This document shows positions 18,211-34,699 of a stretch of DNA of 63,062 nucleotides, one piece after another. Position numbers and translations under genes: made by a program. Source of the stretch: a virus (lineage: Duplodnaviria > Caudoviricetes); the IMG/VR virus record IMGVR_UViG_3300033429_000003, positions 1 to 63,062 of that record; one strand, given 5' to 3'. Numbering within the stretch: position 1 is the first letter of the stretch; each line of letters opens with the position of its first letter. The notes under the pieces are model-generated. The model had not been told where the DNA came from and did no database searches. It saw only the letters and a program-made list of their open reading frames with translations.

Positions 18211-21200
18211 ATGCCAATCGTTGAGCTCAAATCAGAAACCACTCCGTACGACTATATGGAAGAGGATGAGAGTGTTCATAGCGTCGAGTGGGCAGACGAG
18301 GAAGAGGAACGGCAGCACTACGACTTGGACGTGCCTGCGGGAGTCCGGCCGTCGGAGTTCGTGGAGTTCGCGGTTTACATGCCGGGGGGCGGGGACCTCC
18401 ATCAGTTTAGCTTCAGGGACCGCCAGTACCTGAAGACCATCTACAACTCGCCCGCAAAGCGCAAGCTCTTGATGGCGGGACGTCAGGTAGAAAAATGCGA
18501 GTGTTTACAAGGACTTACGTCACTCAACTCTGGGTACCTCAAGAAAGCCGGGGACGTCAAGATAGGTGATTGCCTGGCCTCGATGACTCGTCCGGACACA
18601 GAGATGGGCACGGGCCGTGTGTCATGGCTGTCGAAGATATACACCAAGCCATGTGTCAAGATAACTACCAGGCAGGGGCACGAGACGTGGGTGGCGAAGA
18701 CGCACCCCATGCGTCTGTTTGGTAGATGGGTGCCCGCAGGGGAATTGACGTCAGGTACTCGTCTGTCCGTGGTGCGGAAGTGCGGAGAGTTCCTCCAGCT
18801 CAAGGAAAGCGTCGAGCGCATCAAGGCCACGGCGTACTTGCTGGGAGACGGAGGCCTGGGAGGCCCCTGTGTCTTGTTCCATTCCAAGTCTGCTACGAGG
18901 ATGCAGGAGTTCAAGAGCCTGGTGGCGGGTGTTGGGGACACGGGTCGAGTGGAGGGCGACCACTCCTACCGCGTGCATCGGGGGATTATCCGAGGATGGC
19001 TAGAAGATGATGGTCTCCTAGGCAAGCTCTCTGCGGACAAGTTCATTCCCGAGTGGGTGTTCAACCTCTCTAGGAAAGACACCGCCCTGTTCCTACGCAC
19101 TCTCTGGTCCACAGATGGCCATATCAAGAAGGTCTCCCGGTCCAAGCACGACATTGTCTACTCCTCCATCGCCAAGCGCCTGGTCCTCGACGTTCAAGCC
19201 CTCTTGTGGAAGTTCGGCATCCCGACCGGGCTGCGCTCTTACGTGCCCGAGGTCTATGAGGGGGCTGACAAGGTGCACTGGATGCTGCGGGTTGAGACTC
19301 AGGATGGCATCAACCGTTTCCTCAGCGAGATATCTAATGTGGGCCGCGACGGGTACTTGGTGGCCTCTGCAGACATGCCCGAGAACAACAATCGGGACAC
19401 TTACCCGATCGAAATCAATGACCTGCTCGTGCGCATCCAGGAGAGCGGAGACGATTCGTGGCAGGGGCGCCGAGGTCGGAGCCTACATGCTTCGGGCCTA
19501 CGTAGGACGCTGAAGTCCCCGCCCACCCGGGGCAAGCTTGAGAAGTATTGGGACTTCTTCCTCGAAGGTGGATACGACCAGCAGCTAGTAGACGAGTTGA
19601 GAGCGCACATCTTCACAGACCTCTATTGGGATGAGATAGAAACCATCGAAGATGTAGGGGAGCAGGAGTGCGTAGACTTTGAGGTAGAGGACACGCACAA
19701 CTTCGTGCTGGATGGGTTCGTCACCCACAATAGCACCCTGCTGGGCAACGAGAACTTGGCGTACATGGCTATCACCAACTACTTCCGGTGCCTGTACGTT
19801 AGCCCTTCTAACACGCAGACCAAGGTCTTCAGCCGGGACCGCATTCAGGAGCCCATTGATACCTCTCCTGTGCTGAGCCAGTTTACCAATGGCAGGCTGC
19901 TCAAGAACGTCTTCGAGAAGAAGTTTGTCAACGGTTCTCAAATCACCATGCGGTTCGCGTTTCTCAACGCAGACCGCGTGCGCGGCATTCCTGCGGACAA
20001 GATTACGATCGACGAGTTCCAGGACATCCTCCTGGACAACGTGCCTGTCATTGAGGAGTGCGCTTCGCACTCCGAGTACAAGTTGTTCACCTATGCGGGC
20101 ACACCGAAGTCGTTGGACAACGCCATCGAGCACTACTGGGCCCGCTTCTCTACTCAGAACGAGTGGTCGGTCCCCTGCAAGCATCACGGCACGCCGAAGA
20201 ATTCGTCTTCGTGGTTCTGGAACGTCTTGGCGGAAGACAACATAGGAGACGACGGGCTTATCTGCAGCAAGTGCGGCAAACCCATTTCTCCGAAAGACCC
20301 CGACTGCTCATGGGTGTCACTCAACCCCAACCCGAAGGTGGAGAAGCCCTACGAGGGGTACCGCATCCCCCAGTTGATGGTTCCCTGGATAGATTTCAGC
20401 GACATCAAGGACAAGCAGAAGAAGTACAGCCGGGCCAAGTTCTACAACGAGGTGCTCGGCCGCAGCTACGACTCTGGTACCCGACCCCTCACGCGCACCG
20501 ACATGATTCGGAACTCCTGGTCTGAGCTGTCGATGACGTACTACCGAGAAGTCATCCAATATTGCCAGCAATATCCAGTATTTATGGGACTTGACTGGGG
20601 CACGGGAGAGGGCTCGTACACGGTGATGTCGCTTGGTGGGTACCTTCCGTTTGCCCCGGATCTCTTCACGTTCTTCTACCTCTACCGGTTCGAAGGGATG
20701 GAGTCCGAGCCCAAGGAGCAACTCCGCATCATCAAGCAGCACGCGCGAGAGTTCAATGTGCGCTACATCGGGGTTGACTACGGCGGCGGTTTCTGGCCCA
20801 ACGACGAATTGGTACGTGAGTTCGGTGCAGACAAGATCAAGAAGTACCAGTGGGTTGGCAACGTCAAGAAGAAGATTCAGTTCGACCCTAAGCTAGGCGT
20901 CCCACGGTTCTTGTGTCACCGTACTGAGGTCATGTCGGACATGTTCAACGCCGTCAAGCGGGGCAACGTGTTCCGCTTCCCTCGGTGGGAGGAATTCGAG
21001 GACCCCTACGCCAGGGATTTTCTCAACATCTTCTCGGAGTACAATGAGCGAATGCGGATAAACGTCTACAAGCATGCTCCGGGGAGCCCGGATGACACGT
21101 TCCACTCATGCTGTTTCGGATTTTTGGCTTCCTTCTATTATCGTGCGCGCCCAGACGTTATCCTACCCTCAAAGGAAGTGGAGAGGGAATACAGGTCCAA

Positions 21201-21222
21201 TGAACCGAATGACATCACGTGA
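18211..21222 (+). CDS. terL: Terminase large subunit (lambda gpA-like ATPase), intein-containing
   Basis: GRQVEK|ST Walker A, RVRGI, IDEFQD Walker B, GTPK, Zn finger, FYNEVLG, nuclease MGLDWG and DDTFH. Confidence 0.92.
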   Translation: MPIVELKSETTPYDYMEEDESVHSVEWADEEEERQHYDLDVPAGVRPSEFVEFAVYMPGGGDLHQFSFRDRQYLKTIYNSPAKRKLLMAGRQVEKCECLQGLTSLNSGYLKKAGDVKIGDCLASMTRPDTEMGTGRVSWLSKIYTKPCVKITTRQGHETWVAKTHPMRLFGRWVPAGELTSGTRLSVVRKCGEFLQLKESVERIKATAYLLGDGGLGGPCVLFHSKSATRMQEFKSLVAGVGDTGRVEGDHSYRVHRGIIRGWLEDDGLLGKLSADKFIPEWVFNLSRKDTALFLRTLWSTDGHIKKVSRSKHDIVYSSIAKRLVLDVQALLWKFGIPTGLRSYVPEVYEGADKVHWMLRVETQDGINRFLSEISNVGRDGYLVASADMPENNNRDTYPIEINDLLVRIQESGDDSWQGRRGRSLHASGLRRTLKSPPTRGKLEKYWDFFLEGGYDQQLVDELRAHIFTDLYWDEIETIEDVGEQECVDFEVEDTHNFVLDGFVTHNSTLLGNENLAYMAITNYFRCLYVSPSNTQTKVFSRDRIQEPIDTSPVLSQFTNGRLLKNVFEKKFVNGSQITMRFAFLNADRVRGIPADKITIDEFQDILLDNVPVIEECASHSEYKLFTYAGTPKSLDNAIEHYWARFSTQNEWSVPCKHHGTPKNSSSWFWNVLAEDNIGDDGLICSKCGKPISPKDPDCSWVSLNPNPKVEKPYEGYRIPQLMVPWIDFSDIKDKQKKYSRAKFYNEVLGRSYDSGTRPLTRTDMIRNSWSELSMTYYREVIQYCQQYPVFMGLDWGTGEGSYTVMSLGGYLPFAPDLFTFFYLYRFEGMESEPKEQLRIIKQHAREFNVRYIGVDYGGGFWPNDELVREFGADKIKKYQWVGNVKKKIQFDPKLGVPRFLCHRTEVMSDMFNAVKRGNVFRFPRWEEFEDPYARDFLNIFSEYNERMRINVYKHAPGSPDDTFHSCCFGFLASFYYRARPDVILPSKEVEREYRSNEPNDIT
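18496..19731 (+). mobile_element. Intein with LAGLIDADG-type endonuclease in the terminase Walker A
   Basis: Starts Cys after GRQVEK, ends FVTHN before Ser; YLLGDG and LWSTDG blocks; 412 aa. Confidence 0.93.
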
Positions 21223-21542: not shown

Positions 21543-23300
21543 ATGCACGACGAAATGCCCTTCGGCTTGGCTCGACAGACGAAGTACGCGGCTCTCAGCT
21601 CTGAAGACCTCAACACCATGGGGAAGCAGGCTGCGAACTCCTACCTGTCGTGTGGTGTTCCACTGAACAAGGCTGTGGTGAAGCTGGCCCAGGAACACCC
21701 GAGCATTTCCCCCCACCAGGTCAAGCGCGTAGTTGAGTACGCGAACCAGGAGACCTTCCAGCGTCTCTTCGATGACAACGAGAAATACGCCTGTGACAAG
21801 AACATCGATTTCCCGCTGGCTGACCCTCGCATCGTCCTCCACGAGCTCAACGACGGGGCTCGAGCCCACATCATGACCCCGCCGCCAGACGACTACTCCC
21901 AGGCGCCCGTGAAGTTGGCCCATGCAGACGTCGAGGCTGACCTTGAACTCTGCCGGGTCTTCGGGGTGGAGCCCGAGTCTCCTGGGATGGAAAAGGAAGC
22001 GAAGGCCCGGTACCTCAAGGATATAGTTAAGAGGTACTCGCGGAACCCGGACTACGTACATGAGGGCTCGTTGGCAGTCCATAAGGGGGCGATGAAGCTC
22101 CTAGGAGGGCGGAGAGCGGGTAAGGACATCTCAAAGCTGCGCAGTTGGGGCTCCAAAGGTGGGAGCGTTCGCAAGGGGGTGGCAAAGGCCACTGAGAGGG
22201 TACTTGCCAAGGGCACTGCCAAGCTCGGTTCTGCCGACCTAGAAGTGGTGGATCGCATCCTTGGTGTGGAGAAAGACGCGGGCGTGGCGGCCCTAAAGGG
22301 TCTTGGAAAAGGCCTCTGGGCTGCTGGTAGGGCCGCAGGTCGGGGGCGATTCGGAATGGCCGGTAAGGCTCTGGGCGCCGGGGCTCGCCGCTTTGGTGCC
22401 TCCCCCGGTTCTGGGATGCTGGCGGGGGCGGGCATAGGCGCTGCCACGGGGGCTGCCGCAGCGGGCCCAGACCGACGTCTCAAGGGGGCTCTTACCGGGG
22501 GCCTCCTGGGGGCTGCCGGCGGTGCTGCGGCAGGAACGGGGGCTGGGAGCCTGAAGAACTTGTGGAGCAAGGGGAAGGTCACTACGCCCTTTGCCGCCAT
22601 GAAGCCTGGGTGGCGCTCAGCGGCTGGTGCCGGGGCTGCTGGTTTGGGCGGTGGGGTGCTCATGCAGAAGGGCTCGAGCGCCGAGTTTGCCAAGGAAGCC
22701 ATGGACTACGCCAAGGTCGGCGGTTCCAAAGCCGGGCTCGTCTTGGACGACATGCGGGCAGCGACCGCCGTTGAGCGCATCAAGCAGGCCACCGCTGACC
22801 GGGGGGCTTATCCGGAAGCCAATCCTTACGGAGAGCTCATCCGGACCAAGCAGCGGCTCACCAAGATGGCCCAGGGCGCCCGGGACGCCGTCGCAAAGAA
22901 TGAGTCGCTCTACCACGAGGCCCTGGAGAAGCTGGCCTTCGAGGTCAAGCAGCACTTGCTCCGGGGTGGAAACCTGGGGTCTGTCACCCACGCGATGAGC
23001 TCTGTGACTCCGCCCGACGCCGTCAAGATTGCAATGCGGGCTATCCTCCCCAACCTGAAAGACCACGGGCTGGACCCCGCCCTAGCGCAGGCCGAGATGG
23101 TGAAGTACGAGATGGTCAAGGGGGCCAGCGCTAGGGTCCTGAACCCGGGGCACCCCGTCGTTCAGGCGTATGCCAACATGGTCAAGCTGGCTGAGGGGCA
23201 GGCGACGCTCGAGCACAGCTTTGGCCAGCTCCACAGTGCCCTGTCCGAGGTGGAGAGCACCCTGAAGGAAGCGATGGTGAACCATGCTACTGCGTGCTAG
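21543..23300 (+). CDS. Putative head/core protein with K-x-A sites and Gly-zipper insert
   Basis: GAGG RBS; more than 12 K-x-A motifs; central basic Gly/Ala-rich hydrophobic segment. Confidence 0.65.
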   Translation: MHDEMPFGLARQTKYAALSSEDLNTMGKQAANSYLSCGVPLNKAVVKLAQEHPSISPHQVKRVVEYANQETFQRLFDDNEKYACDKNIDFPLADPRIVLHELNDGARAHIMTPPPDDYSQAPVKLAHADVEADLELCRVFGVEPESPGMEKEAKARYLKDIVKRYSRNPDYVHEGSLAVHKGAMKLLGGRRAGKDISKLRSWGSKGGSVRKGVAKATERVLAKGTAKLGSADLEVVDRILGVEKDAGVAALKGLGKGLWAAGRAAGRGRFGMAGKALGAGARRFGASPGSGMLAGAGIGAATGAAAAGPDRRLKGALTGGLLGAAGGAAAGTGAGSLKNLWSKGKVTTPFAAMKPGWRSAAGAGAAGLGGGVLMQKGSSAEFAKEAMDYAKVGGSKAGLVLDDMRAATAVERIKQATADRGAYPEANPYGELIRTKQRLTKMAQGARDAVAKNESLYHEALEKLAFEVKQHLLRGGNLGSVTHAMSSVTPPDAVKIAMRAILPNLKDHGLDPALAQAEMVKYEMVKGASARVLNPGHPVVQAYANMVKLAEGQATLEHSFGQLHSALSEVESTLKEAMVNHATAC

Positions 23301-23580: not shown

Positions 23581-24366
23581 ATGAACCCACTTCTTGAGAA
23601 GCTGGCCCAGAGCGGCCTTACCGAGGAGCAAGTCCAACGGGCCCAGGAGCGGGCAGAGGACTTCCTGAAGGCCGCTAGTAGCAACGGGTCTTTGAGGAAA
23701 GAGCTCATGGAGAAGATGGGCTTCTCCCCCTGGTCTACCGTGAAGTCGGTTGGACAGACGGCTGGGAAGATGTTTGCCCCCGTGATGGGGCAAACTCTTG
23801 CCTACACCGCTGCTGGTGCTGCTCTCGGTGGGGGTGCTTTTGCTGCCCGGAGGGGATACGAGGCGATTGAGAGTCGGCTGGGTAAAGCCAAAGCCTACAA
23901 GGAGATGGTGGAGGCTCGTCCGGAGCTGAAAGACCGGGACCCCAAGGCGGTTCAGAGGGCCTTTGACAGCTTGTACCGGTTCAACCCCCGCTACGCCAAG
24001 GACCCGCTCGTGGCCGGCTCGTTCGTGGACTCAGTGTCCTCCAGTGAGCGGCTGGACCTCGGGACCGTCAACGCTCTTGTCTCCGCCCGTAAGGGTCTGG
24101 ACGGGGCCCCGTTCGACCCGAGCAAGTATGTGTCCATGAAGGTTCCTGGGCCGGAAGAAATGTCCATCCGGCAACAGCAGGAAGGGCGGAGTGCGGAGGA
24201 GCACAAGGCCAAGATGGAGCAATACGACCAATTGCAGCGTCATAGGGGAGAAGAGCACCCGGTCAAGATGGAGGACTACGCTAGGAAAGAAGAGAAGCAT
24301 GAGTGGGATAGGCCCAAAGAGAAGCATGTAGACCCTATGACCACGATGTATACGGGCGGGAAATGA
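23581..24366 (+). CDS. Putative virion protein with K-x-A motifs and one hydrophobic segment
   Basis: EKLA, LKAA; AAGAALGGGAFA; ATGA overlap with the next gene. Confidence 0.65.
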   Translation: MNPLLEKLAQSGLTEEQVQRAQERAEDFLKAASSNGSLRKELMEKMGFSPWSTVKSVGQTAGKMFAPVMGQTLAYTAAGAALGGGAFAARRGYEAIESRLGKAKAYKEMVEARPELKDRDPKAVQRAFDSLYRFNPRYAKDPLVAGSFVDSVSSSERLDLGTVNALVSARKGLDGAPFDPSKYVSMKVPGPEEMSIRQQQEGRSAEEHKAKMEQYDQLQRHRGEEHPVKMEDYARKEEKHEWDRPKEKHVDPMTTMYTGGK

Positions 24367-27300
24367 TCACAAAGCTAGCCACTTTCCGCGGGGTGACCGA
24401 CCGAGGGGACCCGCTCGTCCAGGTTTTCCGCCAGGGGAGCTCGGTCACCAAGGTGGCGGGCAACCTCATGCAGCCCATTCAGGACTGGCTGGGCGCCTAC
24501 AAGTCTGACTCCCGGAAGATAGCTATCCTAGTCAATGCCCTTGGCGCCTCAGAGTTCTGGGGGCAGAACGTCAACGGGGACATCTTCCCAGAAAGCGCTC
24601 TCATCCACGACTGCCGCTGCCACCCTGGCGAGCAGCACCCCGTGGATGACTTCTCGGGTAAAGTGGTTCCTCCCTACGGCTATTGGACCTTCCTCAACGC
24701 GTTCCCCTACGTCCACCACCGGAACAAAGACCCGACGAGGGCCTTCGGGAAGGTGGCGGTGGCTTGTTGGAACCCGAAGATGAAGCGGGTCGAGCTCGTC
24801 GTGCTCATTGACCGCCACCTGGCAATGCAACATGACGCTCAGCACATAGTCGACCGCGTCGACCGCGGAGATTATCCAGATGTTTCAATGGGTTGTAGGG
24901 TACCGTATGACGTCTGCACCTGCTGTGGCAACAAGTCTAAGACCCGCAACGATTACTGCTCGTGCATCAAGAACATCGGCATGGGCAAAATCCTCGACGA
25001 CGGGAGACAAATCGGGGTCGTCAACACCTACCCGAGGTTCTTCGACATCAGCTTTGTTTTCATCGGGGCGGACAAGACCGCCAAGATGATGTGCAAGTTG
25101 GGGTCCGCCGGGGCGCCCCAATCTGTTCTCGACGCCGAGCGCGTCTACAACTTCGAGGAGACCCCGGAAGGCCTCATCAAGGCAGCTTGCGGCCGGAAGG
25201 GTGGGTGTTCTGAGTGCCCCGGTAAGTGTAAGGTCGCCGAGCCTCGTATTGCGGGAGTCTCCTTGGAAGAGTCGGACAGGATACTCTCGGGATTGAGGGG
25301 GGCGGCTGCAGGGGCGGTGCAGGGGCACACTCCTGCGGACGCGGCGCTGAAAGCAGCTCGAGGGGCGGCCAAGCGCATTGGCCTGGACAAGGCAACCAGG
25401 CCCGCCTCTCTCAAGGTTAAGGGGGTGCCCAAGCGTATGTCCCAGAAGCGGGAGGCGCAAATGGCCGAGAAGCTCCTCAAGAAGGTCTCTGCCGAGCAGT
25501 CCCGGTTCACCGCCGAGGTGTATTCCGAGGGCACCGGCGAGCCTACCCAGCATAAGAAGCTGACCAAGGAGACCGAGGACGGTCTGAGCAAGACCATCCT
25601 CCGGCGATTCGCCCCGCCGCCCCCGTCTTCCCAGACCGTCTATGGGAGGGAGGACCCCCAGGACGATGAGGGGATGCGTGTCCTGCCTACGAATGAGAAC
25701 ACTCCAACCGACGGGGTAGACGACGACACCAAGTTGTCAAGCGCCGTATCCCACGTGCTGCCCCACGCCGTCGAGCGCGTCTATCATCTGCGGGGTCACC
25801 CGGAGACCCTGGAGAACCTGGACAAGCAGCTTTTGATGATGCAAGCGGCAGGTAGCTGGGGGGCCAGTAGGGGCATTCGGAGCTCGATTGACGGCGACGG
25901 ACATGAGTGGCTGAAGGTCAAAGGGGCCCCTGGCAGTCTGGAAAAGGAAAAGCTCAAGAAGGAGATGGACAAGAGCGAGGTCGATGTCCACTCCCTCAAG
26001 AAGGAAGCGAAGATAGTAGGGGAAGGGGGAGGCACCTCAAGCGGCGAAAAGACCTATCTTACGGAATTCAGGACGGGTAAGAGATTCAAGTACGGCGACG
26101 ATTTCATAGTCGAAGAGATGTTGCCTGCAGACTCTGATATCAAGAGGAGGAAGGCCTACATGCTGCGGTCGTCTAAGGACGGGCAGCTGTTGGCCCAGAC
26201 GGGCACTGACGACTTTGGCTCCTATATACGACTAGCATTTCAGCACACCCCAAAAGAGCACAGGCGTAAAGGGTACGGGACAAGCCTCCTAGCAGCGGTT
26301 GGCAGGCTCAACCCGGACAAGAAGTTTGTGGCGGTTCCTGACCCCTTCATGGACAGGTCTGCCTCTGTAGAGGACCTGACCAAGTTCTACAAGGAGAGCG
26401 GTTTTGGGGTAGCAGGCGACTATGGTGATGGACGACCTCTCATGGTTCGGGCCTCCTACAATGCTGCAAGGAACTACCACAAGGAGAAGAGCGCCGCCTT
26501 CAAGATGGGCCCTCCGCCGAGCCCGAACAGGGACAAGTTCCCGTTCGTTGGCACCATCAACTTTCGTGGGCTGCTCATCTACGTCGAGAACGCCCCGGGC
26601 ACCTGGCGCACCGGACCTGGCTGGAAGACTCTGATGAAGGTCCCCTACGGGGAGTTCGCCCGGTCACTGGGGACAGACGGGGACAAGCTGGACGTCTACG
26701 TGGGACCGGACAGGAACTGCGAGAACGTCTTCATCGTCCACCAGAACTTTGTTCGTGGGCCAAAGAAGGGCGAGTACGACGAGGACAAGACGCTTCTAGG
26801 TTTTTCCTCCCCAAAAGATGCCAAGAGTGCGTACTTGGCTCACTATGACAGCCCGGACTTCTTTGGCTGTATGTCCATGATGCCTTTTTCTGAGTTCAAG
26901 AGGCGGTTGGACCGCTCGAAGGGGGGATATGTAGAGCATTCAGAGTATTCCCATCCGTTTGAACCCAGCGCGGATCGCTTGCACGGTAACCCCGAACTTG
27001 CTCGCGATTTCGTCAATAGTATGTTTCTCTTTGTAGAGGGCCGCCGCCTCATCTCTGTCCCAAAGTCTGCGCTCGGGGCACGTACGGTTTTCACGAGAGG
27101 TGGGAAGCCCCCGTCTGGAGAATACTCTGAACACCGCAGAGGTGCTTACCCCGAGCTTCCTCGCGACCTTCTCGATAGAAAGACCCTCATCCCAAAGAAC
27201 CAGCGCCTCCTCCATCGACCAAAGACGCGGGCCTCCGTGAAGACGGCGGTGCTCGGATTGAGTGATTATTTCCAGGTTGTCAACGGCGTTGTTAAGCCCA

Positions 27301-28772
27301 TTCCCATCGCGGTGGTGGACAATCTCGGTGCGGCACAGCTTGCGCCCAAGTACCCGCTCCATGACAACCCGGTGCTCCAAGCGTTGTACACGGTCAACGT
27401 AAATCAACCTGTACTGTGTGTTACCCCCAAGGGTTCTGGTATGCGCCATGAATCTGGGCATTACATTACGATCGTTGAGGGTCAAGAGAAAAAGGCAGCT
27501 GCTCATCTTGAGGAGCTCGCAGCAGACACCGCTTTGGGGGGCCTGTTCCAGGGAGAAGTAGATGGTGAGAAAGTGGCCAGCCGGCGTGGAGAGATCATGG
27601 CCTTCTATCTCGCAAGGGCGCGAGGGGAATCACCTACTCCCCCAGGAGGGGTAGATCGCCGAGGTGAGGTAGTATCCCACTACTTAGAGAAGACGGCTGA
27701 AAGCTTGAGGCTGGAAGACCTCTTTGACTCAGCTACTACGGAGAACTCGGTCAGAAGAGAGCGGACCTGGCGGGACAAGACCACGAACAAGGAGACCAAC
27801 GTCACCGGTTCGGGGATGGGTAGCTGGGAGAAGACGAAGACGGCGTCCGTCAAAGTCTGCAGCCCAATGGACCTCTACAAGCTGTCGACGGAGGACAAGG
27901 AGGCGGCGAAGAGGAAGTGGGCTGAGATCATAAAAGAGGTAGGCCCGAGTAAGGCAGTGGGGCAAACGTCACCGTTGCTGTCGGACTCGGAGCCCAGTAT
28001 TCCCCGAGAGGCACTAGATGCCATGGGGGCAAAGGGACTGGAGTCGGCTCTAGCAACTCCATCTCTCATGGGTATGGTACTGAAGCCGAAAGAGTTCCAG
28101 AGGATCTCTCTTGTCCATATGGGCAAGAAGGACCTAGCGGACCAGCTGGATGACGCGGGTGCATGCTTCAGGCCTCGAATGGGAGAGGAGGGTCCTTGTA
28201 CTAGCTTGGAGCCCCATCATGCGGACATGGATCTCTTGAAGATGCTATTGCCGCTCCTCTCCCAGCGCTCTTACTTTGGTCCGGTGGTGCGACGTCGCAT
28301 CATCCGCATCACCATGGTGAAGCCCAAGCCTCAGGTTCCGGAGCAGGAAGTAGATTCTCCTCTTCTCTCGAAAGTGGCATCTGCCTACAATTGGTATCGT
28401 CGAGAGCAGATGAAGGTAGCGACCGACTCTTTGGATAGGGTAACAGCCATCCCAGAGCTCCACGCTGCCATTTACGGGCTGGAGGATGCAGACCTGTTCA
28501 AGACGGCGGGGCTGCCAGACAGAACAACGATGGGGATGATGTTGGGGGCCATACCCCTCACGCTGATGTATTCAGCCCATCTCCGTTCTGAACAAGAGCA
28601 AGGAAGAGATGTTGGTACCATAGGGAGGTTCGTAGCAGATCATCCATGGCTTACGTCCATGGCGGCCGTATCTGGGACTCGGGCCCTTATGGAGACACCG
28701 GCGGTTAGGCAGCACATCGACGAGGGGATAGACAGGGCCGCAAGAGCGGGCCAAGCCCTTCGTGGTCACTGA
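24363..28772 (+). CDS. Prohead maturation protease polyprotein (protease, GNAT, inorganic-pyrophosphatase-like domain, C-terminal domain)
   Basis: NVNGDIF, VHHRN, VSMGC, CTCC, DISFV..GAD (HK97/assemblin-type protease with Zn insert); RRKGYGT...FYKESGF (GNAT); VENAPG..YG..DGDKLDVYVG..DEDK..GF (InPase-like). Confidence 0.8.
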   Translation: MITKLATFRGVTDRGDPLVQVFRQGSSVTKVAGNLMQPIQDWLGAYKSDSRKIAILVNALGASEFWGQNVNGDIFPESALIHDCRCHPGEQHPVDDFSGKVVPPYGYWTFLNAFPYVHHRNKDPTRAFGKVAVACWNPKMKRVELVVLIDRHLAMQHDAQHIVDRVDRGDYPDVSMGCRVPYDVCTCCGNKSKTRNDYCSCIKNIGMGKILDDGRQIGVVNTYPRFFDISFVFIGADKTAKMMCKLGSAGAPQSVLDAERVYNFEETPEGLIKAACGRKGGCSECPGKCKVAEPRIAGVSLEESDRILSGLRGAAAGAVQGHTPADAALKAARGAAKRIGLDKATRPASLKVKGVPKRMSQKREAQMAEKLLKKVSAEQSRFTAEVYSEGTGEPTQHKKLTKETEDGLSKTILRRFAPPPPSSQTVYGREDPQDDEGMRVLPTNENTPTDGVDDDTKLSSAVSHVLPHAVERVYHLRGHPETLENLDKQLLMMQAAGSWGASRGIRSSIDGDGHEWLKVKGAPGSLEKEKLKKEMDKSEVDVHSLKKEAKIVGEGGGTSSGEKTYLTEFRTGKRFKYGDDFIVEEMLPADSDIKRRKAYMLRSSKDGQLLAQTGTDDFGSYIRLAFQHTPKEHRRKGYGTSLLAAVGRLNPDKKFVAVPDPFMDRSASVEDLTKFYKESGFGVAGDYGDGRPLMVRASYNAARNYHKEKSAAFKMGPPPSPNRDKFPFVGTINFRGLLIYVENAPGTWRTGPGWKTLMKVPYGEFARSLGTDGDKLDVYVGPDRNCENVFIVHQNFVRGPKKGEYDEDKTLLGFSSPKDAKSAYLAHYDSPDFFGCMSMMPFSEFKRRLDRSKGGYVEHSEYSHPFEPSADRLHGNPELARDFVNSMFLFVEGRRLISVPKSALGARTVFTRGGKPPSGEYSEHRRGAYPELPRDLLDRKTLIPKNQRLLHRPKTRASVKTAVLGLSDYFQVVNGVVKPIPIAVVDNLGAAQLAPKYPLHDNPVLQALYTVNVNQPVLCVTPKGSGMRHESGHYITIVEGQEKKAAAHLEELAADTALGGLFQGEVDGEKVASRRGEIMAFYLARARGESPTPPGGVDRRGEVVSHYLEKTAESLRLEDLFDSATTENSVRRERTWRDKTTNKETNVTGSGMGSWEKTKTASVKVCSPMDLYKLSTEDKEAAKRKWAEIIKEVGPSKAVGQTSPLLSDSEPSIPREALDAMGAKGLESALATPSLMGMVLKPKEFQRISLVHMGKKDLADQLDDAGACFRPRMGEEGPCTSLEPHHADMDLLKMLLPLLSQRSYFGPVVRRRIIRITMVKPKPQVPEQEVDSPLLSKVASAYNWYRREQMKVATDSLDRVTAIPELHAAIYGLEDADLFKTAGLPDRTTMGMMLGAIPLTLMYSAHLRSEQEQGRDVGTIGRFVADHPWLTSMAAVSGTRALMETPAVRQHIDEGIDRAARAGQALRGH
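26940..27461 (-). CDS. HNH homing endonuclease with two HTH domains, nested antisense in the protease gene
   Basis: EHRVVME..LGR.L...EIVHHRDGNGLNN..NL....SEH; SIEKVARKLGVS and TIDEIASKFGVT HTHs. Start 27461 or 27449. Confidence 0.88.
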   Translation of the reverse strand: MPRFMAHTRTLGGNTQYRLIYVDRVQRLEHRVVMERVLGRKLCRTEIVHHRDGNGLNNAVDNLEIITQSEHRRLHGGPRLWSMEEALVLWDEGLSIEKVARKLGVSTSAVFRVFSRRGLPTSRENRTCPERRLWDRDEAAALYKEKHTIDEIASKFGVTVQAIRAGFKRMGIL

Positions 28773-28869: not shown

Positions 28870-29781
28870 GTGATGAACGAGTTCCTGGCAGAAATGTACA
28901 ACACCCGCGAGAACATTGGTGCGGAGGGCAGCGCCAGCGACATCGAGAAGATGGCGGAAGCCCAAATCCTCTCTGACGAGCTGGCCGCCGAGGGCTATGA
29001 TGCCAGCCAACTTCCCTCTGAAACCCTCATGAAGGTCGCCTACGAATTGTGGGGCGAGGACAGTGCCATCGTCAAGTCTGCGGCGGAAGGCATGAAGGCC
29101 GAGGAGGAAGAGGAGGAAGAGGAGGAGGAGGAAGAGGGTGAGGAGAAAGAAGGCTCCTTCGAGACGAAAGTCGCCGAAGCTGACTTCCTGGGCCGCGTGA
29201 TGGCTCACTCGTTCGTCAACGAGCAAAACTCCATGGAGAAGGAAGCTCTGGGGAAGGCTCAGGCGGCTAAGGCCGTCCGGTCCATTTTCGGCGGCGGCGG
29301 CAACATCTCCCCAAGGGCGGCTAAGGCGTTTGAGAGCGCCACCAAGGCAGAGCGCGCAGCGGCTCGTTCCGCGGGGGCATACGGGGGCGCGGCAAGGGCC
29401 GGCAGTGGCGCCAGTGGGGCTACGAATATTGGCCCCACGGTCAAAGAGCGGCTCCAACAGTTTGCCAAGACGGCCCCGGGCCGGGCTAAGGAGAAGGGCC
29501 TTGCAGCCGGCAAGAAGAGCTGGGAGCACGTCAAGGCCAACAAGGGCAAGTACATGGCCGGCGGCGCCGGCGGTGCAGGGGCCTTGGGTCTGGCCGGAGG
29601 GGCGTACGCTCTTGGCAAGAAGAAGGCAGCCTCGGCTCTCGACGCCCTGGCTGAGCAGCGCGCCATGGAGATGCTGAAGGAAGCCGGCTACGAAACGGAG
29701 AGCGAGGAGGACCGTCTCAAGGAAGCGGTCGACCATCGTGCCCTGGAGATGCTGGCGGAAGCGGGATACCTCAAGGAGTAG
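28870..29781 (+). CDS. Scaffold-like protein with poly-Glu tract and Gly-zipper insert
   Basis: AAGGAG RBS; acidic helices with K-x-A sites; duplicated RAxEMLxEAGY. Confidence 0.6.
   Translation: MMNEFLAEMYNTRENIGAEGSASDIEKMAEAQILSDELAAEGYDASQLPSETLMKVAYELWGEDSAIVKSAAEGMKAEEEEEEEEEEEEGEEKEGSFETKVAEADFLGRVMAHSFVNEQNSMEKEALGKAQAAKAVRSIFGGGGNISPRAAKAFESATKAERAAARSAGAYGGAARAGSGASGATNIGPTVKERLQQFAKTAPGRAKEKGLAAGKKSWEHVKANKGKYMAGGAGGAGALGLAGGAYALGKKKAASALDALAEQRAMEMLKEAGYETESEEDRLKEAVDHRALEMLAEAGYLKE
29101..29145 (+). repeat. (GAG/GAA)n poly-Glu coding tract
   Basis: gaggaggaagaggaggaagaggaggaggaggaagagggtgaggag. Confidence 0.8.
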
Positions 29782-31712: not shown

Positions 31713-31737
31713 GCCCACGTCAGAAGGAGATACGGCC

Positions 31738-32088
31738 ATGGAAAAGATCAGTTCTCAGGACGCAAAGGCCCTCCTCAAGACGGCGGGGGCCGCGATCCGG
31801 GCAGTGACTGAGGAGAACGCTTCTCTTCGAGAGAAGGTGGCGTCCTACGAGCGTTACACCCGAGTCGAGAAGATTGCCCGGGACATGGAGGACAAGGGTT
31901 TGAACCCAGACCTCGACTTTCAGCAGAAGGTCGCGGCTCTGAGTCACGCCCAGAACCTCGATGTCACCGAGGAAGCCATCAAGATGGCCGCCCCACAGGG
32001 TCGGGTCTTGGGCGACGTCGGTGAGGTGCCGGGGCAGGGGATGAGTTCCTTCGAGTCCTACATTATGACCGGTGAAGACCCGGCGTAG
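31738..32088 (+). CDS. Coiled-coil scaffold-like protein
   Basis: AAGGAG RBS at MEKISS; KTA, KVA, KIA, KVA, KMA. Confidence 0.65.
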   Translation: MEKISSQDAKALLKTAGAAIRAVTEENASLREKVASYERYTRVEKIARDMEDKGLNPDLDFQQKVAALSHAQNLDVTEEAIKMAAPQGRVLGDVGEVPGQGMSSFESYIMTGEDPA

Positions 32089-32121
32089 GCTCGACGCAGA
32101 AACCACGGAGGTAAAAGACTC

Positions 32122-32592
32122 ATGTTGGACTTCGATCTCAAGAGCGAGTTCCAGACGATCCAGCGCCGATCCTTCGAGCTGGCGACGCCTGCAATCCTCA
32201 ACCCGAACAACGCCAACCCAATCGTTATGGGCGAGTTCCTGCAGCTCGACACGGCGTACAAGATGGCGCGTGGTTCGGCGGATGGTCTGTTGCCGGCGTT
32301 CTGCTACTTTGCGGAGCAGGGTCGGTACGAGACCCAGGCCATTCAGAAGGGCCCGTTCCTCTACCTGGGGGCCTACGAGGCAGACACCAAGATCATGGAC
32401 ACCACCCTGGAGGCGACCATCACTGCCGTTGGGCAGGCCCTGATGGTCAACGACGTCTCCATCGGTGGCGTGAACAAGCGTGGTCTGAGCGCCCTGCCTG
32501 CTAGTCCGGCGGGGACAGAGTACGTCGTCGGTTTCGTCACGAGGCTGCCGGCCAACAACAACGGCTACCTGCGGTTCATCCGTACGCTGTAG
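32122..32592 (+). CDS. Probable capsid decoration/cement protein
   Basis: 156-aa beta-rich protein directly before the capsid gene; GGAGG RBS. Confidence 0.6.
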   Translation: MLDFDLKSEFQTIQRRSFELATPAILNPNNANPIVMGEFLQLDTAYKMARGSADGLLPAFCYFAEQGRYETQAIQKGPFLYLGAYEADTKIMDTTLEATITAVGQALMVNDVSIGGVNKRGLSALPASPAGTEYVVGFVTRLPANNNGYLRFIRTL

Positions 32593-32649
32593 CAGAACTG
32601 TAGGACCGTTGGCTGAGTAACCCTCGAAGGAACCCAAAGGAGTAACCCG

Positions 32650-33765
32650 ATGAGTATCGTTCAAGCAAGCATCGAGCTCTTCAATCAGCGGCTCGATAGC
32701 CAGGAAGGCAAGACCAAGATTGCAGAACTGGGCGGGTCCTGGATCCGTGACAGGCTGCGTGAAGTGGCGTACTCGCGTCACATCTTGCCGCCAGAGCAAG
32801 TCACCCGTGCCGACTGCCAGCGCTCGGTCAACCACGACACGTTGGTCAAGATCGTGGACGTCGAGCCCCAGAGCCGTGCCATGGCTATCACGTTCCGTGA
32901 CCAGCCGACGGCTCGGTTCATCCGTGGCCCCAAGGCGGAGATCCCCTTCTTCACCATCTCCTCGGAGAAGTTCGAGAAGACGGAGCAGGAGCTCCTCGCC
33001 TACGAGATGCCCATCACCAAGGTCATCGAAGACAACTCGGTGAAGGACATCCAGGAGATCGAGGACCATCAGTTCACCCGTCACATCGAGACGGCGGTCC
33101 AAGCTCTCCAGCTGGAAGTCAACGGCACAGGCACGGGCTACAACGCCACGGCCGTCAGGGCCGGCACAGAGGTGGCAGTGTCCATCGTCAAGGGCGAGCT
33201 TGCCCTGGCGGCGGACGGTATCACCTTCACCGACTTCCCCATCCAGCGCCCGGACTTCGTGGCCCTCTTCAAGCTGCTCGACAACAACCGCTTGCGGTCG
33301 GAGCGAGTGCTCATCACAGAGGGTGACCACGACGACGTGCTGCAGTGGACCACGGAAGACTTCGGCGACAAGATTGCGTCGGAGACGGTGGTCGACGGCT
33401 ACAAGTACAACACGCTGCTCGGCCGCAAGGTCGTCCGGACCATCAAGACGGACATCCTCCGGGTCGGCAACGTGTACTGCTTCGCCGCTCCACAGTTCTT
33501 CGGCAAGTTCTACATCCTCAACAACACCAAGTTCTACATCGACAAGATCGCCAACGTCATCACCTGGCAGAGCTGGGAAGACATCGGCATGGGCTTGGTC
33601 AACATCTCCGCCGTGCGCAAGCTCGAGCTCTACAGAGGCTCGGTCAAGCCGTCCGACACCGACACCGGCTTCGCAGCCAAACTGCCGCTGGCGGAAGAGG
33701 ATCTTGGCGCAGAAAACAATCGGGTTGATCAGGGGCTCCATTACCCTGACGTGCAACAATACTAG
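32650..33765 (+). CDS. Major capsid protein (HK97 fold)
   Basis: 371 aa, strong codon bias, AAGGAG RBS; IRDRLRE..SRHILPP, IPFFTISS, DIQEIED patterns; canonical position. Confidence 0.8.
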   Translation: MSIVQASIELFNQRLDSQEGKTKIAELGGSWIRDRLREVAYSRHILPPEQVTRADCQRSVNHDTLVKIVDVEPQSRAMAITFRDQPTARFIRGPKAEIPFFTISSEKFEKTEQELLAYEMPITKVIEDNSVKDIQEIEDHQFTRHIETAVQALQLEVNGTGTGYNATAVRAGTEVAVSIVKGELALAADGITFTDFPIQRPDFVALFKLLDNNRLRSERVLITEGDHDDVLQWTTEDFGDKIASETVVDGYKYNTLLGRKVVRTIKTDILRVGNVYCFAAPQFFGKFYILNNTKFYIDKIANVITWQSWEDIGMGLVNISAVRKLELYRGSVKPSDTDTGFAAKLPLAEEDLGAENNRVDQGLHYPDVQQY

Positions 33766-33859
33766 CAATTCCGGGTAGTTAGGCACACGGGAGGTTTGGT
33801 TGTTTTCAGACTGCTAGCAGTTATTGACGACACCACTCCCGTGTGCTAGCCCGGGGTTC

Positions 33860-34699
33860 ATGAAAACTTGCTCAACTTGCTCTAAGAGTCTTCCGGATGA
33901 CGCTTTCTACGCTAAGTACAATCAGTGCAAAGTCTGCAGGAAGAAGAAGGCAGACGAGCGTAGGGAGCGCCTCAAAGCGCTCGGTTCCTGTCCTCGGTGT
34001 AGGAAACCTACGGGCGACGGAAAGCACGTCCTGTGCGCTAGCTGCCAAGAGTACGGCAAGTTCTACTACCGCCAGAAACACGGCCTGTCTGAGCGGGACA
34101 AGATCCTGCAGGGCGCTCCTCCGGGCACCCGGTACTGCACGACGTGTGAGGACTACCTCCCCCTGGAGGAGTTCCATGCTAGTGACAATCGGGGGGTCAC
34201 AAGGTGTGCACGCTGCAAGGCCAAGAAGGTTGCTGAGTACCATCAGCGTCTCAAGGAAGACCGCAGGTGTTACCACTGCCGAGTGCCTCTTGAGGAGGAT
34301 GACGAGAGCCTCTGTGACCTTTGCAGGGCTCGAGCCCGTAAGAGGTACCACGAGAATGGGGACGAGCGCAGGGCTGGGAACAGGGAGCGTAAGCGTCGAC
34401 TCAAGGCTCTGGTGTTCGACGCTTACGGTGGCCCAAAGTGCGTCTGCTGCGGCGAGGAGACCTTGGACTTCTTGTCCATCGACCACATCAATGACGATGG
34501 GGCCGACCACCGTAGGAAGTTGAAAGAGAGGCACGGCTACACCATGGACATGTACCGCTGGCTCAAGAACCATAACTTCCCGGAGGGGTTCCAGGTCCTG
34601 TGCTTCAACTGCAATTTCGCCAAGGGCCATTTTGGCATTTGCCCGCATGAAGTTGAGCGCCGCCGGGCGAACATGAGAACGGTTAGGAGTAACCTGTGA
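33860..34699 (+). CDS. Free-standing HNH endonuclease with multiple Zn fingers
   Basis: Repeated CxxC; YGGPKCVCCG...SIDHI...VLCFNCNFAKG. Confidence 0.88.
   Translation: MKTCSTCSKSLPDDAFYAKYNQCKVCRKKKADERRERLKALGSCPRCRKPTGDGKHVLCASCQEYGKFYYRQKHGLSERDKILQGAPPGTRYCTTCEDYLPLEEFHASDNRGVTRCARCKAKKVAEYHQRLKEDRRCYHCRVPLEEDDESLCDLCRARARKRYHENGDERRAGNRERKRRLKALVFDAYGGPKCVCCGEETLDFLSIDHINDDGADHRRKLKERHGYTMDMYRWLKNHNFPEGFQVLCFNCNFAKGHFGICPHEVERRRANMRTVRSNL

What the first reader, a model, noticed from the sequence alone, without database searches (positions are those of the whole stretch)
26925..27500. HNH endonuclease gene nested antisense and frame-preserving in an essential gene
Seen: a complete HNH+2xHTH gene on the - strand while the + frame stays open for ~190 codons of non-protein-like sequence, rejoining at EKKAAA. 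No intein motifs or obvious intron. A TTGACC-N16-TAATGC element lies 8 nt before ATG 27449. Inference: the element avoids splicing because host K-x-A proteolysis discards the junk peptide. Caveat: the two frames are codon-aligned, where stop-free antisense frames are common at high GC.
Basis: partly seen in the sequence, partly recalled or inferred. Interest (0 to 1): 0.75.

Follow-up and report, generated by a model that had tools for sequence, protein, structure and literature searches.

The report
Read-through antisense homing endonuclease gene
A selfish nuclease gene sits backwards inside a phage head-protein gene and, like its relatives in other phages, avoids the three codons that would read as stops on the opposite strand, so the host's ribosomes can apparently read straight through it without any splicing.

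Summary
A complete HNH plus two-HTH endonuclease gene (26940-27461/27506, minus strand) lies codon-aligned inside a 1469-aa plus-strand ORF (24363-28772). That ORF encodes a T4 gp21-like prohead protease fused to cargo modules. Seven close orthologs and an about 93%-identical metagenomic contig lack the element and have the two flanks fused in frame. The insertion is 630 nt, directly after the InPase (PF18823) domain. The 45 codons upstream of it appear to have been replaced along with it. No intron model and no intein domain was found.

For this window alone, the open frame could be chance (5-9%). The family evidence argues otherwise. Of 15 distinct relatives (GC 0.32-0.64), 14 have no TTA, CTA or TCA codon, about 0.9 of the first 14 analysed being expected. 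Eleven of the 15, counting the window, are embedded in frame in long host ORFs. Four form bridge ORFs between the upstream gene's stop and the downstream gene's start. The translated antisense peptide also occurs inside 23 protein clusters, 18 of them with InPase.

Best reading: a homing endonuclease lineage selected to be translationally transparent. Translation of the insert itself has not been shown.

The parts
24363..28772 (+). Host gene: a 1469-aa prohead protease and cargo polyprotein. It contains an N-terminal protease, variable modules, an InPase domain and a conserved C-terminal domain. The frame stays open through the insertion.
   Evidence: ORF. 102 homologs. Alignments A1 and A4. 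Head-module context.
24363..25067 (+). N-terminal prohead-protease-like domain, about aa 1-235.
   Evidence: AF2 model with pLDDT 73.9 and pTM 0.70. The top PDB fold match is T4 gp21, 5JBL: E 3.8e-4, prob 1.00, TMt 0.58. Weak hit to phrog_18299, head maturation protease, E 3e-4.
26550..26906 (+). InPase domain (PF18823), aa 730-848. It covers profile positions 12-133 of 135, so it is complete.
   Evidence: E 9e-27.
26790..26924 (+). The last 45 codons of the InPase region (aa 810-854), replaced or co-converted together with the element. Identity to the closest ortholog drops here.
   Evidence: Against P0002: 23/41 identical here, 92/95 just upstream and 92/98 just downstream of the insert. The DNA joint of the empty allele starts at 26789.
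26925..27554 (.). A 630-nt (210-codon) insertion absent from orthologs. On the plus strand it reads as a stop-free, domain-less peptide.
   Evidence: Alignment A1. No Pfam family at E <= 1. 23 protein clusters elsewhere hold a similar peptide.
26940..27461 (-). HNH homing-type endonuclease gene: HNH_3 plus two HTH modules, 173 aa from Met16. The longest ORF runs to 27506, and an alternative start lies at 27449. It contains no TTA, CTA or TCA codon.
   Evidence: Start placed by alignment with relatives. Codon counts.
27458..27485 (-). It is present but weak.
   Evidence: Read. The scan finds 0 promoter-like sites.
27555..28772 (+). Conserved C-terminal part of the host protein (aa 1065-1469), in the same frame as the upstream part.
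   Evidence: 217/268 identical to P0002 over aa 1200-1469. Invariant columns in A1.

Best explanation
A freestanding HNH homing endonuclease gene has invaded the phage's prohead protease and cargo polyprotein gene, directly after its InPase module. It is in antisense orientation and codon-aligned with the host frame. The transferred unit is 630 nt, and about 135 nt of donor InPase coding sequence was co-converted with it.

The endonuclease gene uses none of the three codons (TTA, CTA, TCA) whose reverse complements are stop codons. Its own start and stop codons read as His and Ser on the host strand. Host ribosomes can therefore translate straight across it and continue into the conserved C-terminal 405 residues. 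Neither RNA splicing nor protein splicing is needed.

This is a property of the whole endonuclease lineage. Its members sit antisense in or next to InPase-coding sequence of many unrelated phage virion proteins. They are either an in-frame insert or a stop-free bridge ORF that starts at the upstream gene's stop and ends at the downstream gene's start.

Shown: the insertion and its presence/absence polymorphism, the mosaic flank, the stop-free frame, and its family-wide excess over expectation.

Inferred: that the insert is actually translated; that the benefit is continued translation (downstream domain made, coupling kept, polarity avoided); that the enzyme cleaves InPase-coding DNA of empty alleles.
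For: (1) Insertion and polymorphism. Seven orthologs (54-87% identical) lack aa 855-1064 and join ...LLRR to EVDGEKVA in frame. Contigs of runs X3 and X4 (one study, 90-95% alike) skip 26790-27689 and have 159 nt there instead. That is a net 741 nt, or 3 x 247, and it matches P0002's 53 codons. A 250-nt contig from another study (X2) bridges the left junction at 99% or more.

(2) Mosaic flank. Identity to P0002 is 92/95, then 23/41, then [insert], then 92/98.

(3) The HNH frame is the selected one. Catalytic-motif columns are invariant in 5 members. Pairwise differences at HNH codon positions 1, 2 and 3 are 0.47, 0.37 and 0.67.

(4) Family-wide stop-free frame. All 218 distinct HNH-like regions in the fetched loci were screened. 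Of the 12 at 40% identity or more over 140 aa or more, 11 have 0 aligned-antisense stops. The figures are 3 of 24 for other long matches and 34 of 182 for short core-only matches. Fifteen distinct members were examined by hand, including the window, the truncated L191 and the distant L196. Fourteen have 0 stops in the aligned frame, while the other two antisense frames hold 2-22. AT-rich members (GC 0.32, 0.39, 0.44) use TTG/CTT for Leu and no TTA, although they use ATA, GTA and TAT. From the flanking genes' codon usage, 0.94 of 14 are expected to be open and 13 are. The Poisson-binomial P is 7e-18, assuming independence. The closest pair is 62% identical in protein.

(5) Host ORFs run through the element for 430 to 2373 codons in L106, L107, L186, L187, L189, L191, L192, L193, L195 and L196.

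(6) Bridge ORFs.
- L110: a GTG start overlaps the upstream stop, and the stop overlaps the next gene's ATG as ATGA.
- L109/L004: an ATG overlaps the upstream stop, and the stop forms TAATG with a downstream ATG.
- L267: the ORF ends 5 nt before the next ATG.
- L188, the one member with stops in the aligned frame, has another antisense frame open for 178 codons. That frame starts as TGATG on the InPase gene's stop.

(7) An unrestricted HMMER search with the 210-aa insert peptide finds 23 cluster representatives (85-3842 aa), in most of which the match lies internally. Eighteen of the 23 have InPase. In 11 the insert lies after the domain, and in 7 it splits the domain. Hosts include portal fusions and polyvalent proteins.
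Against: - No expression data exist. No RNA run holds the stretch, so translation of the insert is inferred.
- For this window alone, the open frame has a 5-9% chance probability. The phage also has a 688-codon aligned antisense ORF over its major head protein gene that is surely spurious.
- The search with the insert peptide can only find cases where a gene caller kept the frame open, so it says nothing about frequency.
- Family members share ancestry, so the P value overstates independence.
- Three embedded members (L192, L193, L196) show no InPase next to the insert on reading the flanking translation; no profile search was run on them. Targeting is therefore not exclusive to InPase.
- A possible internal restart (GGAG, 5 nt, ATG at 27597) could make the C-terminal part independently of read-through.
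- The cleavage specificity of the enzyme is unknown.
Confidence: 0.75

Rival explanations
1. Chance plus survivorship. An ordinary freestanding HNH gene happened to land in frame, and at about 57% GC the aligned antisense frame happened to be open. Nothing is adapted.
For: P(open) is 0.05 from codon usage. 9% of 211-codon windows in this phage's genes are open. Long spurious aligned antisense ORFs exist in the window, for example 31720..33786. Of 80 HNH ORFs, 3 have no such codons, and all 3 are GC-rich.
Against: Fourteen of 15 family members are stop-free, including members at GC 0.32-0.44 whose neighbouring genes use TTA or CTA for up to 38% of Leu codons. 0.94 of 14 are expected and 13 are observed. 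Non-family HNH genes of similar GC carry 6-12 such codons. The bridge ORFs begin and end at neighbouring genes' stop and start codons.
Confidence: 0.07
2. The insert is translated, but the phage's own head protease then cuts at K-x-A motifs and discards the junk peptide. This proteolysis is what makes the insertion harmless.
For: The N-terminal domain folds like T4 gp21 protease. K-x-A occurs 25 times against 8.8 expected in the polyprotein, 17 against 7.5 in the upstream 585-aa protein, and 10 against 5.1 in the downstream acidic protein. Variable modules in orthologs are bounded by EKVA, EKTA, TKTA and KKEA. The insert contains K-x-A at aa 901, 960 and 1043/1044, and EKVA follows at 1070.
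Against: No K-x-A lies between the InPase domain and the start of the insert; the nearest upstream are at 818 and 821, inside the domain. At least the first 46 insert residues would therefore stay on InPase. About 1 K-x-A is expected in the insert from its composition (my hand count of K and A, no call) against 4 seen, which is marginal. Relatives sit in portal fusions, polyvalent proteins and bridge ORFs with no such protease evident. The cleavage specificity is untested.
Confidence: 0.12
3. The insert is removed by an unrecognised intron (RNA) or an intein-like reaction (protein).
For: Twenty-three of 102 homologs of the host protein carry intein or Hint domains, so the gene family is a hot spot for self-splicing elements.
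Against: There is no Rfam hit. Only 15 nt and 93 nt lie outside the HNH coding sequence, which is too little for a ribozyme core. There is no intein or Hint Pfam hit in the host protein or in the insert. The insert boundaries lack the usual splice residues (read). An intron would not need an open frame, yet the frame is kept open across the family.
Confidence: 0.03
4. The host gene is functionally split. Ribosomes may run into the insert, but the C-terminal part is made from an internal start. The upstream protein simply tolerates, or is inactivated by, a junk tail.
For: GGAG, 5 nt, ATG at 27597 could serve as a restart. Four relatives do have separate genes on either side of the element. Splitting by homing endonuclease genes is known in T4-like phages (recalled, not from a call).
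Against: No stop codon ends the upstream part, which a clean split would have. The GGAG-ATG is also present at protein level (GEIM) in the HNH-free ortholog P0005, so it is not linked to the element. The stop-free frame is under selection even in the split cases.
Confidence: 0.08

Closest known systems
Freestanding HNH homing endonuclease genes of phages (HNH_3 / I-HmuI-like catalytic domain with HTH DNA-binding modules). The nearest isolates are Flavobacterium phage genes, e.g. in NC_048832.
   Same: Same catalytic and DNA-binding domains. Presence/absence polymorphism between close relatives, and a diverged flank consistent with co-conversion.
   Different: The isolates' genes (31% identical) lie on the same strand as their neighbours, between genes. 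The present lineage lies antisense inside or between host ORFs and keeps one antisense frame free of stops.
Homing endonuclease genes that split a host gene into two functional pieces, such as mobE in the nrdA gene of phage Aeh1 and split gp43 in T4-like phages (recalled, not from a call).
   Same: A freestanding endonuclease gene inside an important phage gene, with no intron or intein, while the host function is kept.
   Different: There the host gene becomes two separately translated genes and the endonuclease gene is in sense orientation. Here the host frame is continuous through the element (11 of 15) or is linked by a bridge ORF (4 of 15).
Inteins with homing endonuclease domains.
   Same: In-frame, translated insertion in a conserved protein. 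The same host gene family carries inteins in 23 of 102 homologs.
   Different: An intein's endonuclease is read on the sense strand and excises itself. Here the endonuclease is read from the opposite strand, the sense-strand peptide has no Hint or intein domain, and no excision is indicated.
Group I intron-encoded HNH endonucleases, such as I-HmuI of phage SPO1 (recalled).
   Same: An HNH_3-type enzyme interrupting a phage gene.
   Different: No ribozyme was detected, and there is no room for one. An intron has no need for an open frame.
Rickettsia palindromic elements: selfish DNA inserted in frame into protein-coding genes and translated with them (recalled).
   Same: The cost of insertion is avoided by staying in frame and being translated as an extra peptide segment.
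   Different: Those are short non-coding repeats. Here the translated insert is the reverse complement of a complete, conserved protein-coding gene.

Membership tests
HNH_3-type freestanding homing endonuclease | HNH catalytic motif | tested here: met
   PF13392 at aa 45-88, E 4e-9. PHROG HNH families at E 3e-19 and 7e-18. The H-H...N...N...H columns are invariant in 5 members.
HNH_3-type freestanding homing endonuclease | Separate DNA-binding module(s) | tested here: met
   HTH_23, HTH_7 and HTH_38 at aa 97-131. A second HTH at aa 155-180.
HNH_3-type freestanding homing endonuclease | Sporadic presence: alleles with and without the gene in close relatives | tested here: met
   Seven of 7 aligned orthologs lack it. 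The X3/X4 contigs, 90-95% alike, lack it.
HNH_3-type freestanding homing endonuclease | Co-conversion of flanking host sequence | tested here: inconclusive
   The 45 codons upstream are 56% identical to P0002, against 94-97% on either side. This is consistent with co-conversion, but the donor is unknown.
HNH_3-type freestanding homing endonuclease | Cleaves the empty allele and promotes its own copying | not testable with these tools
   Needs enzyme assays and co-infection.
Intein | Hint-fold splicing domain encoded in the host frame | tested here: not met
   No intein or Hint family in the 1469-aa protein at E <= 0.01. No family in the 210-aa insert at E <= 1.
Group I / group II intron | Ribozyme core flanking the endonuclease ORF | tested here: not met
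   No Rfam hit at gathering score, and only a chance snoRNA hit at E <= 10. Only 15 and 93 nt lie outside the HNH coding sequence.
Prohead (capsid maturation) protease, T4 gp21 / assemblin fold (host gene, N-terminal domain) | Assemblin-like fold | tested here: met
   Foldseek top three hits are 5JBL chains, E 3.8e-4 to 8.7e-4, prob 1.00. The model has pLDDT 73.9.
Prohead (capsid maturation) protease, T4 gp21 / assemblin fold (host gene, N-terminal domain) | Catalytic His/Ser in place, and cleavage of head proteins | not tested
   Residues were not mapped. The K-x-A enrichment is only suggestive.
InPase domain of phage polyvalent/virion proteins (PF18823) | Profile match over the whole domain | tested here: met
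   E 9e-27, profile positions 12-133 of 135. The domain's occurrence in virion polyvalent proteins, portal fusions and with NUDIX/GNAT is described in PMC5512222 (passages read).

The most novel reading that the evidence does not exclude
A lineage of homing endonuclease genes has evolved a further way, besides introns, inteins and gene splitting, to live inside essential genes. The gene is written on the antisense strand, codon-aligned, and purged of the three codons that would read as stops on the host strand. The host ribosome therefore translates the parasite's reverse complement, either as an inert peptide insert or as a coupling ORF between genes. The lineage specialises on the conserved InPase module of phage virion proteins and carries a replacement copy of that module's 3' end with it.
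Probability: 0.6. Interest if true: 0.85.

Novelty: new variant of a known kind. Interest (0 to 1): 0.8.

Why it matters
Homing endonuclease genes are thought to survive in essential genes only by hiding in self-splicing introns or inteins, or by splitting the gene. A stop-free, antisense, translated-through arrangement would be a cheaper solution, because it needs only synonymous codon choice.

It would also be a clear case of selection acting on the non-coding strand of a gene for the benefit of a different gene's translation.

There are practical consequences. Gene callers merge the reverse-complement peptide into host proteins: 23 clusters were found here. Domain annotation of phage polyvalent, portal and protease proteins is therefore contaminated by 180-210-residue pseudo-linkers.

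The arrangement gives a directly testable system for translational coupling and polarity in phage late operons. It also points to a family of nucleases that probably recognise InPase-coding DNA.

Tried and rejected
- DNA search of the host gene against isolated phages found no match.
- The search for close relatives of the C-terminal part in viral contigs by peptide patterns gave none.
- A PDB sequence search with the N-terminal 300 aa gave no hit at E <= 1. The fold search was needed instead.
- Sequencing runs: no RNA holder is listed, so splicing and expression could not be examined.
- In the contigs laid, X2 does not bridge the right junction, because its piece starts at 27552.
- The promoter scan gave 0 sites.
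- Literature searches for an antisense or opposite-strand homing endonuclease gene kept in frame returned nothing relevant. I saw only the listings and abstract starts. PMC5512222 was read in passages only, and it has 0 occurrences of 'intein' or 'homing'.
- The following were considered and dropped because they belong to other architectures: L284 and L270 (HTH-first, and an intein-embedded HNH in a 1155-aa ORF), and L143 and L173 (32-34% identical, aligned antisense frame closed). They were not counted as members of the subfamily.
- I did not model the InPase domain to test whether the within-domain insertion site is a loop. That statement rests only on length variation in the alignments.
Full report
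**What is there**

The window is a 63,062-base viral contig, with a CheckV completeness estimate of 34. Nearly all of its long ORFs are on the plus strand. One plus-strand ORF, 24363..28772, encodes 1469 aa. Inside it, on the minus strand and on the same triplet boundaries, lies a 188-aa ORF at 26940..27506.

The minus-strand product is a bona fide endonuclease:
- Pfam HNH_3 at aa 45-88, E 4e-9.
- HTH_23, HTH_7 and HTH_38 at aa 97-131, and a second HTH at about aa 155-180.
- PHROG HNH endonuclease families at E 3e-19 and 7e-18.

Alignment with relatives puts its start at Met16 (27461) or Met20 (27449), not at 27506.

The plus-strand translation of the same DNA (26925-27554, 210 aa) matches no Pfam family even at E <= 1. 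Rfam finds no intron or other RNA family. The host protein has no intein or Hint domain.

**The host gene**

The gene lies between a large terminase (18211-21222, phrog_675) and the major head protein (32650-33765, phrog_2522).

Its first 300 residues were modelled with a 39-sequence alignment, giving pLDDT 73.9 and pTM 0.70. The closest solved structure is the T4 capsid assembly protease gp21 (5JBL, E 3.8e-4, prob 1.00). Herpesvirus proteases appear further down the list.

After the protease come variable modules, a complete InPase domain (PF18823, aa 730-848, E 9e-27) and a conserved 405-aa C-terminal part.

A word-indexed search found 102 homologs of 829 to 2178 aa. Twenty-three of them carry intein or Hint domains, so this gene family is often invaded by selfish elements.

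The InPase domain is described as a module of phage virion-packaged polyvalent proteins, fused to portals or linked with NUDIX and GNAT domains (PMC5512222, passages read). That description fits what I see here.

**It is an insertion, and empty alleles exist**

In an alignment with seven orthologs (54-87% identical), all seven lack aa 855-1064 and run ...LLRR straight into EVDGEKVA. The insert is therefore 26925-27554: 630 nt, or 210 codons. Of this, 15 nt lie beyond the HNH stop and 93 nt lie upstream of Met16.

Public contigs give the same answer at the DNA level. Two runs of one study (X3, X4) hold a contig 90-95% alike that skips 26790-27689 and has 159 nt in their place. The net difference is 741 nt, or 3 x 247. 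Those 53 codons correspond to the junction sequence of ortholog P0002.

A run from another study (X2) holds small contigs, 99% or more alike, of the occupied allele. One of them bridges the left junction.

The break in similarity starts 45 codons before the insert. Against P0002, identity is 92/95 for aa 715-809, 23/41 for aa 810-854, and 92/98 just after the insert. So the last part of the InPase region was replaced together with the endonuclease gene. This is the expected result of co-conversion during homing, although the donor is unknown.

**Is the open frame more than chance?**

For this window alone, not convincingly. Only TTA, CTA and TCA in the HNH gene would give stops in the aligned host frame. 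With the phage's codon usage, the probability of none is 0.05. In addition, 761 of 8354 (9%) 211-codon windows of the phage's genes are open in this way. A 688-codon aligned antisense ORF also lies over the major head protein gene.

**The relatives settle it**

Relatives were collected by similarity to the HNH protein, which is blind to the other strand. The sources were viral contigs, metagenome contigs and genome and MAG contigs.

A local tblastn over all fetched loci gave 218 distinct HNH-like regions:

| Class of match | With no aligned-antisense stop |
|---|---|
| 40% identity or more over 140 aa or more | 11 of 12 |
| Other matches of 100 aa or more | 3 of 24 |
| Short, core-only matches | 34 of 182 |

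I examined 15 distinct members by hand. These were the window, L106, L107, L109, L110, L186, L187, L188, L189, L192, L193, L195 and L267, plus L191 (a truncated HNH of 133 aa) and L196 (34% identical). Duplicates were dropped: L002=L106, L003/L004/L108=L109, L190=L107, and L194=L268=L110. The results were:

- Fourteen have 0 stops in the aligned antisense frame, against 2-22 in each of the other two antisense frames.
- Their GC content ranges from 0.32 to 0.64. The AT-rich members write Leu as TTG or CTT and never as TTA, although they use ATA, GTA and TAT freely.
- From the codon usage of flanking host-strand ORFs, the per-locus probability of no such codon is 0.0002-0.19. That gives 0.94 open frames expected among 14, and 13 are seen. 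The Poisson-binomial P is 7e-18 if the loci are independent (L267 was found later and is not in that test).
- The closest pair is 62% identical in protein, so synonymous sites are probably near saturation (my inference). Shared ancestry still makes the P value optimistic.
- Differences between members are greatest at HNH codon position 3 (0.67, against 0.47 and 0.37 at positions 1 and 2). The HNH frame is therefore the one under protein-level selection.

**How the elements sit in their hosts**

All 15 are antisense to the neighbouring genes. In eleven, the stop-free frame is simply the host ORF, which runs on for hundreds of codons on both sides:

| Locus | Length of the open host frame (codons) |
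|---|---|
| Window | 1469 |
| L106 | 640 |
| L107 | 2373 |
| L186 | 960 |
| L187 | 993 |
| L189 | 430 or more |
| L191 | 840 |
| L192 | 441 or more |
| L193 | 1817 |
| L195 | 834 |
| L196 | 532 or more |

In four, the frame is a separate bridge ORF:
- **L110.** Its GTG start overlaps the stop of a gene of more than 1631 aa that ends in InPase. Its stop overlaps the next gene's start as ATGA.
- **L109/L004.** An ATG overlaps the InPase gene's stop, and the stop forms TAATG with a downstream ATG. A better ribosome-binding site lies 21 nt further on.
- **L267.** The ORF ends 5 nt before the ATG of a gene that begins with InPase.
- **L188.** This is the only member with stops (6) in the aligned frame. 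Another antisense frame is open for 178 codons, and it begins as TGATG on the stop of a stand-alone InPase gene.

**Target**

Twelve of the 15 lie in or beside InPase-coding sequence. L192, L193 and L196 show none next to the insert on reading the flanking translation, with no profile search run on them.

Independently, an exhaustive HMMER search of 1.84 billion representative proteins with the 210-aa insert peptide found 23 proteins of 85-3842 aa at E <= 1e-3, in most of which the match lies internally. Pfam finds InPase in 18 of the 23:
- In 11, the insert follows the domain, as in the window.
- In 7, the insert splits the domain, between the VHQ strand and the DE(D/Q)K motif, as in L106 and L189.

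The hosts include Mu-type and other portal fusions, and polyvalent proteins with RelA/SpoT, ART, ParB-like, RadC and LPD1 domains. This search can only find open frames, so it shows spread, not frequency.

Both insertion sites border the same 45-codon C-terminal segment of InPase that is replaced in the window. In L186 that segment is present on both sides of the element.

Among 50,697 isolated-phage records, only 31%-identical relatives exist. They are ordinary same-strand intergenic genes in Flavobacterium phages.

**Mechanism proposed**

The antisense, codon-aligned placement is the one geometry in which a complete gene, with its own start and stop codons, can lie inside another ORF without interrupting it. 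ATG reads as His on the other strand, and the three stop codons read as Ser or Leu. Only three synonymous-replaceable codons have to be avoided.

I infer that host ribosomes translate across the element. The downstream domain (embedded form) or downstream gene (bridge form) is then still made, and the late mRNA is not left untranslated. The benefit may be:
- production of the C-terminal domain;
- preserved translational coupling;
- avoidance of transcriptional polarity.

I cannot distinguish among these three.

K-x-A is enriched, at 25 against 8.8 expected. Ortholog modules are bounded by such motifs, and a gp21-like protease is at the N-terminus. However, no site precedes the insert, and the relatives manage without such a context.

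**What is missing, and verdict**

There are no RNA or protein data. Literature searches found no description of such an arrangement. They cover only the open-access library, and I saw only listings and abstract starts.

The case belongs to a previously unremarked, apparently adapted lifestyle of a homing endonuclease lineage.

Noticed in passing
window 33824-34699 (+): A second endonuclease gene (phrog_2255 HNH endonuclease, E 3e-13; also endonuclease VII-like) sits directly after the major head protein gene, on the same strand as its neighbours.
   Followed up: no
window 31720-33786 (-): A 688-aa antisense ORF, codon-aligned with the major head protein gene and the gene before it. It is almost certainly spurious and shows how easily aligned antisense frames stay open in this phage.
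   Followed up: partly
window 18211-21222 (+): The large terminase ORF is 1003 aa, but the terminase profile covers only aa 509-969. The N-terminal 500 aa are unexplained, apart from a weak helicase hit.
   Followed up: no
homologs of window 24363-28772 (P0027-P0097): Twenty-three of 102 homologs of the protease polyprotein carry intein, Hint or LAGLIDADG domains. Others carry NUDIX, GNAT, SET or cupin modules at the variable positions.
   Followed up: partly
window 21543-23300, 24363-28772, 28870-29781, 10460-12448: K-x-A tripeptides are 2-3 times more frequent than in shuffled sequence in these proteins (17 vs 7.5, 25 vs 8.8, 10 vs 5.1, 13 vs 4.4) but not in most others. This may be the head protease's cleavage motif.
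   Followed up: partly
L186 943-3822 (-): The C-terminal InPase segment occurs twice in one 960-codon frame: once before the antisense HNH, and once about 350 codons after it. It looks as if the element brought its own copy and the original was kept.
   Followed up: no
L188 2862-3398 (-): This is the only family member with stops in the aligned antisense frame. It has a different antisense frame open for 178 codons, starting as TGATG on the upstream InPase gene's stop.
   Followed up: partly
L042 3387-5429 (+) and 3971-4381 (+): An unrelated HNH ORF lies on the same strand, in another frame, inside a 680-aa DNA methylase-like ORF that stays open across it. This may be another kind of read-through nesting, or a high-GC accident.
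   Followed up: no
L191 743-1144 (+): The HNH gene is truncated to 133 aa (second HTH lost), yet the 840-codon host frame across it is still open. This may be a decaying element held in frame by the host gene.
   Followed up: no
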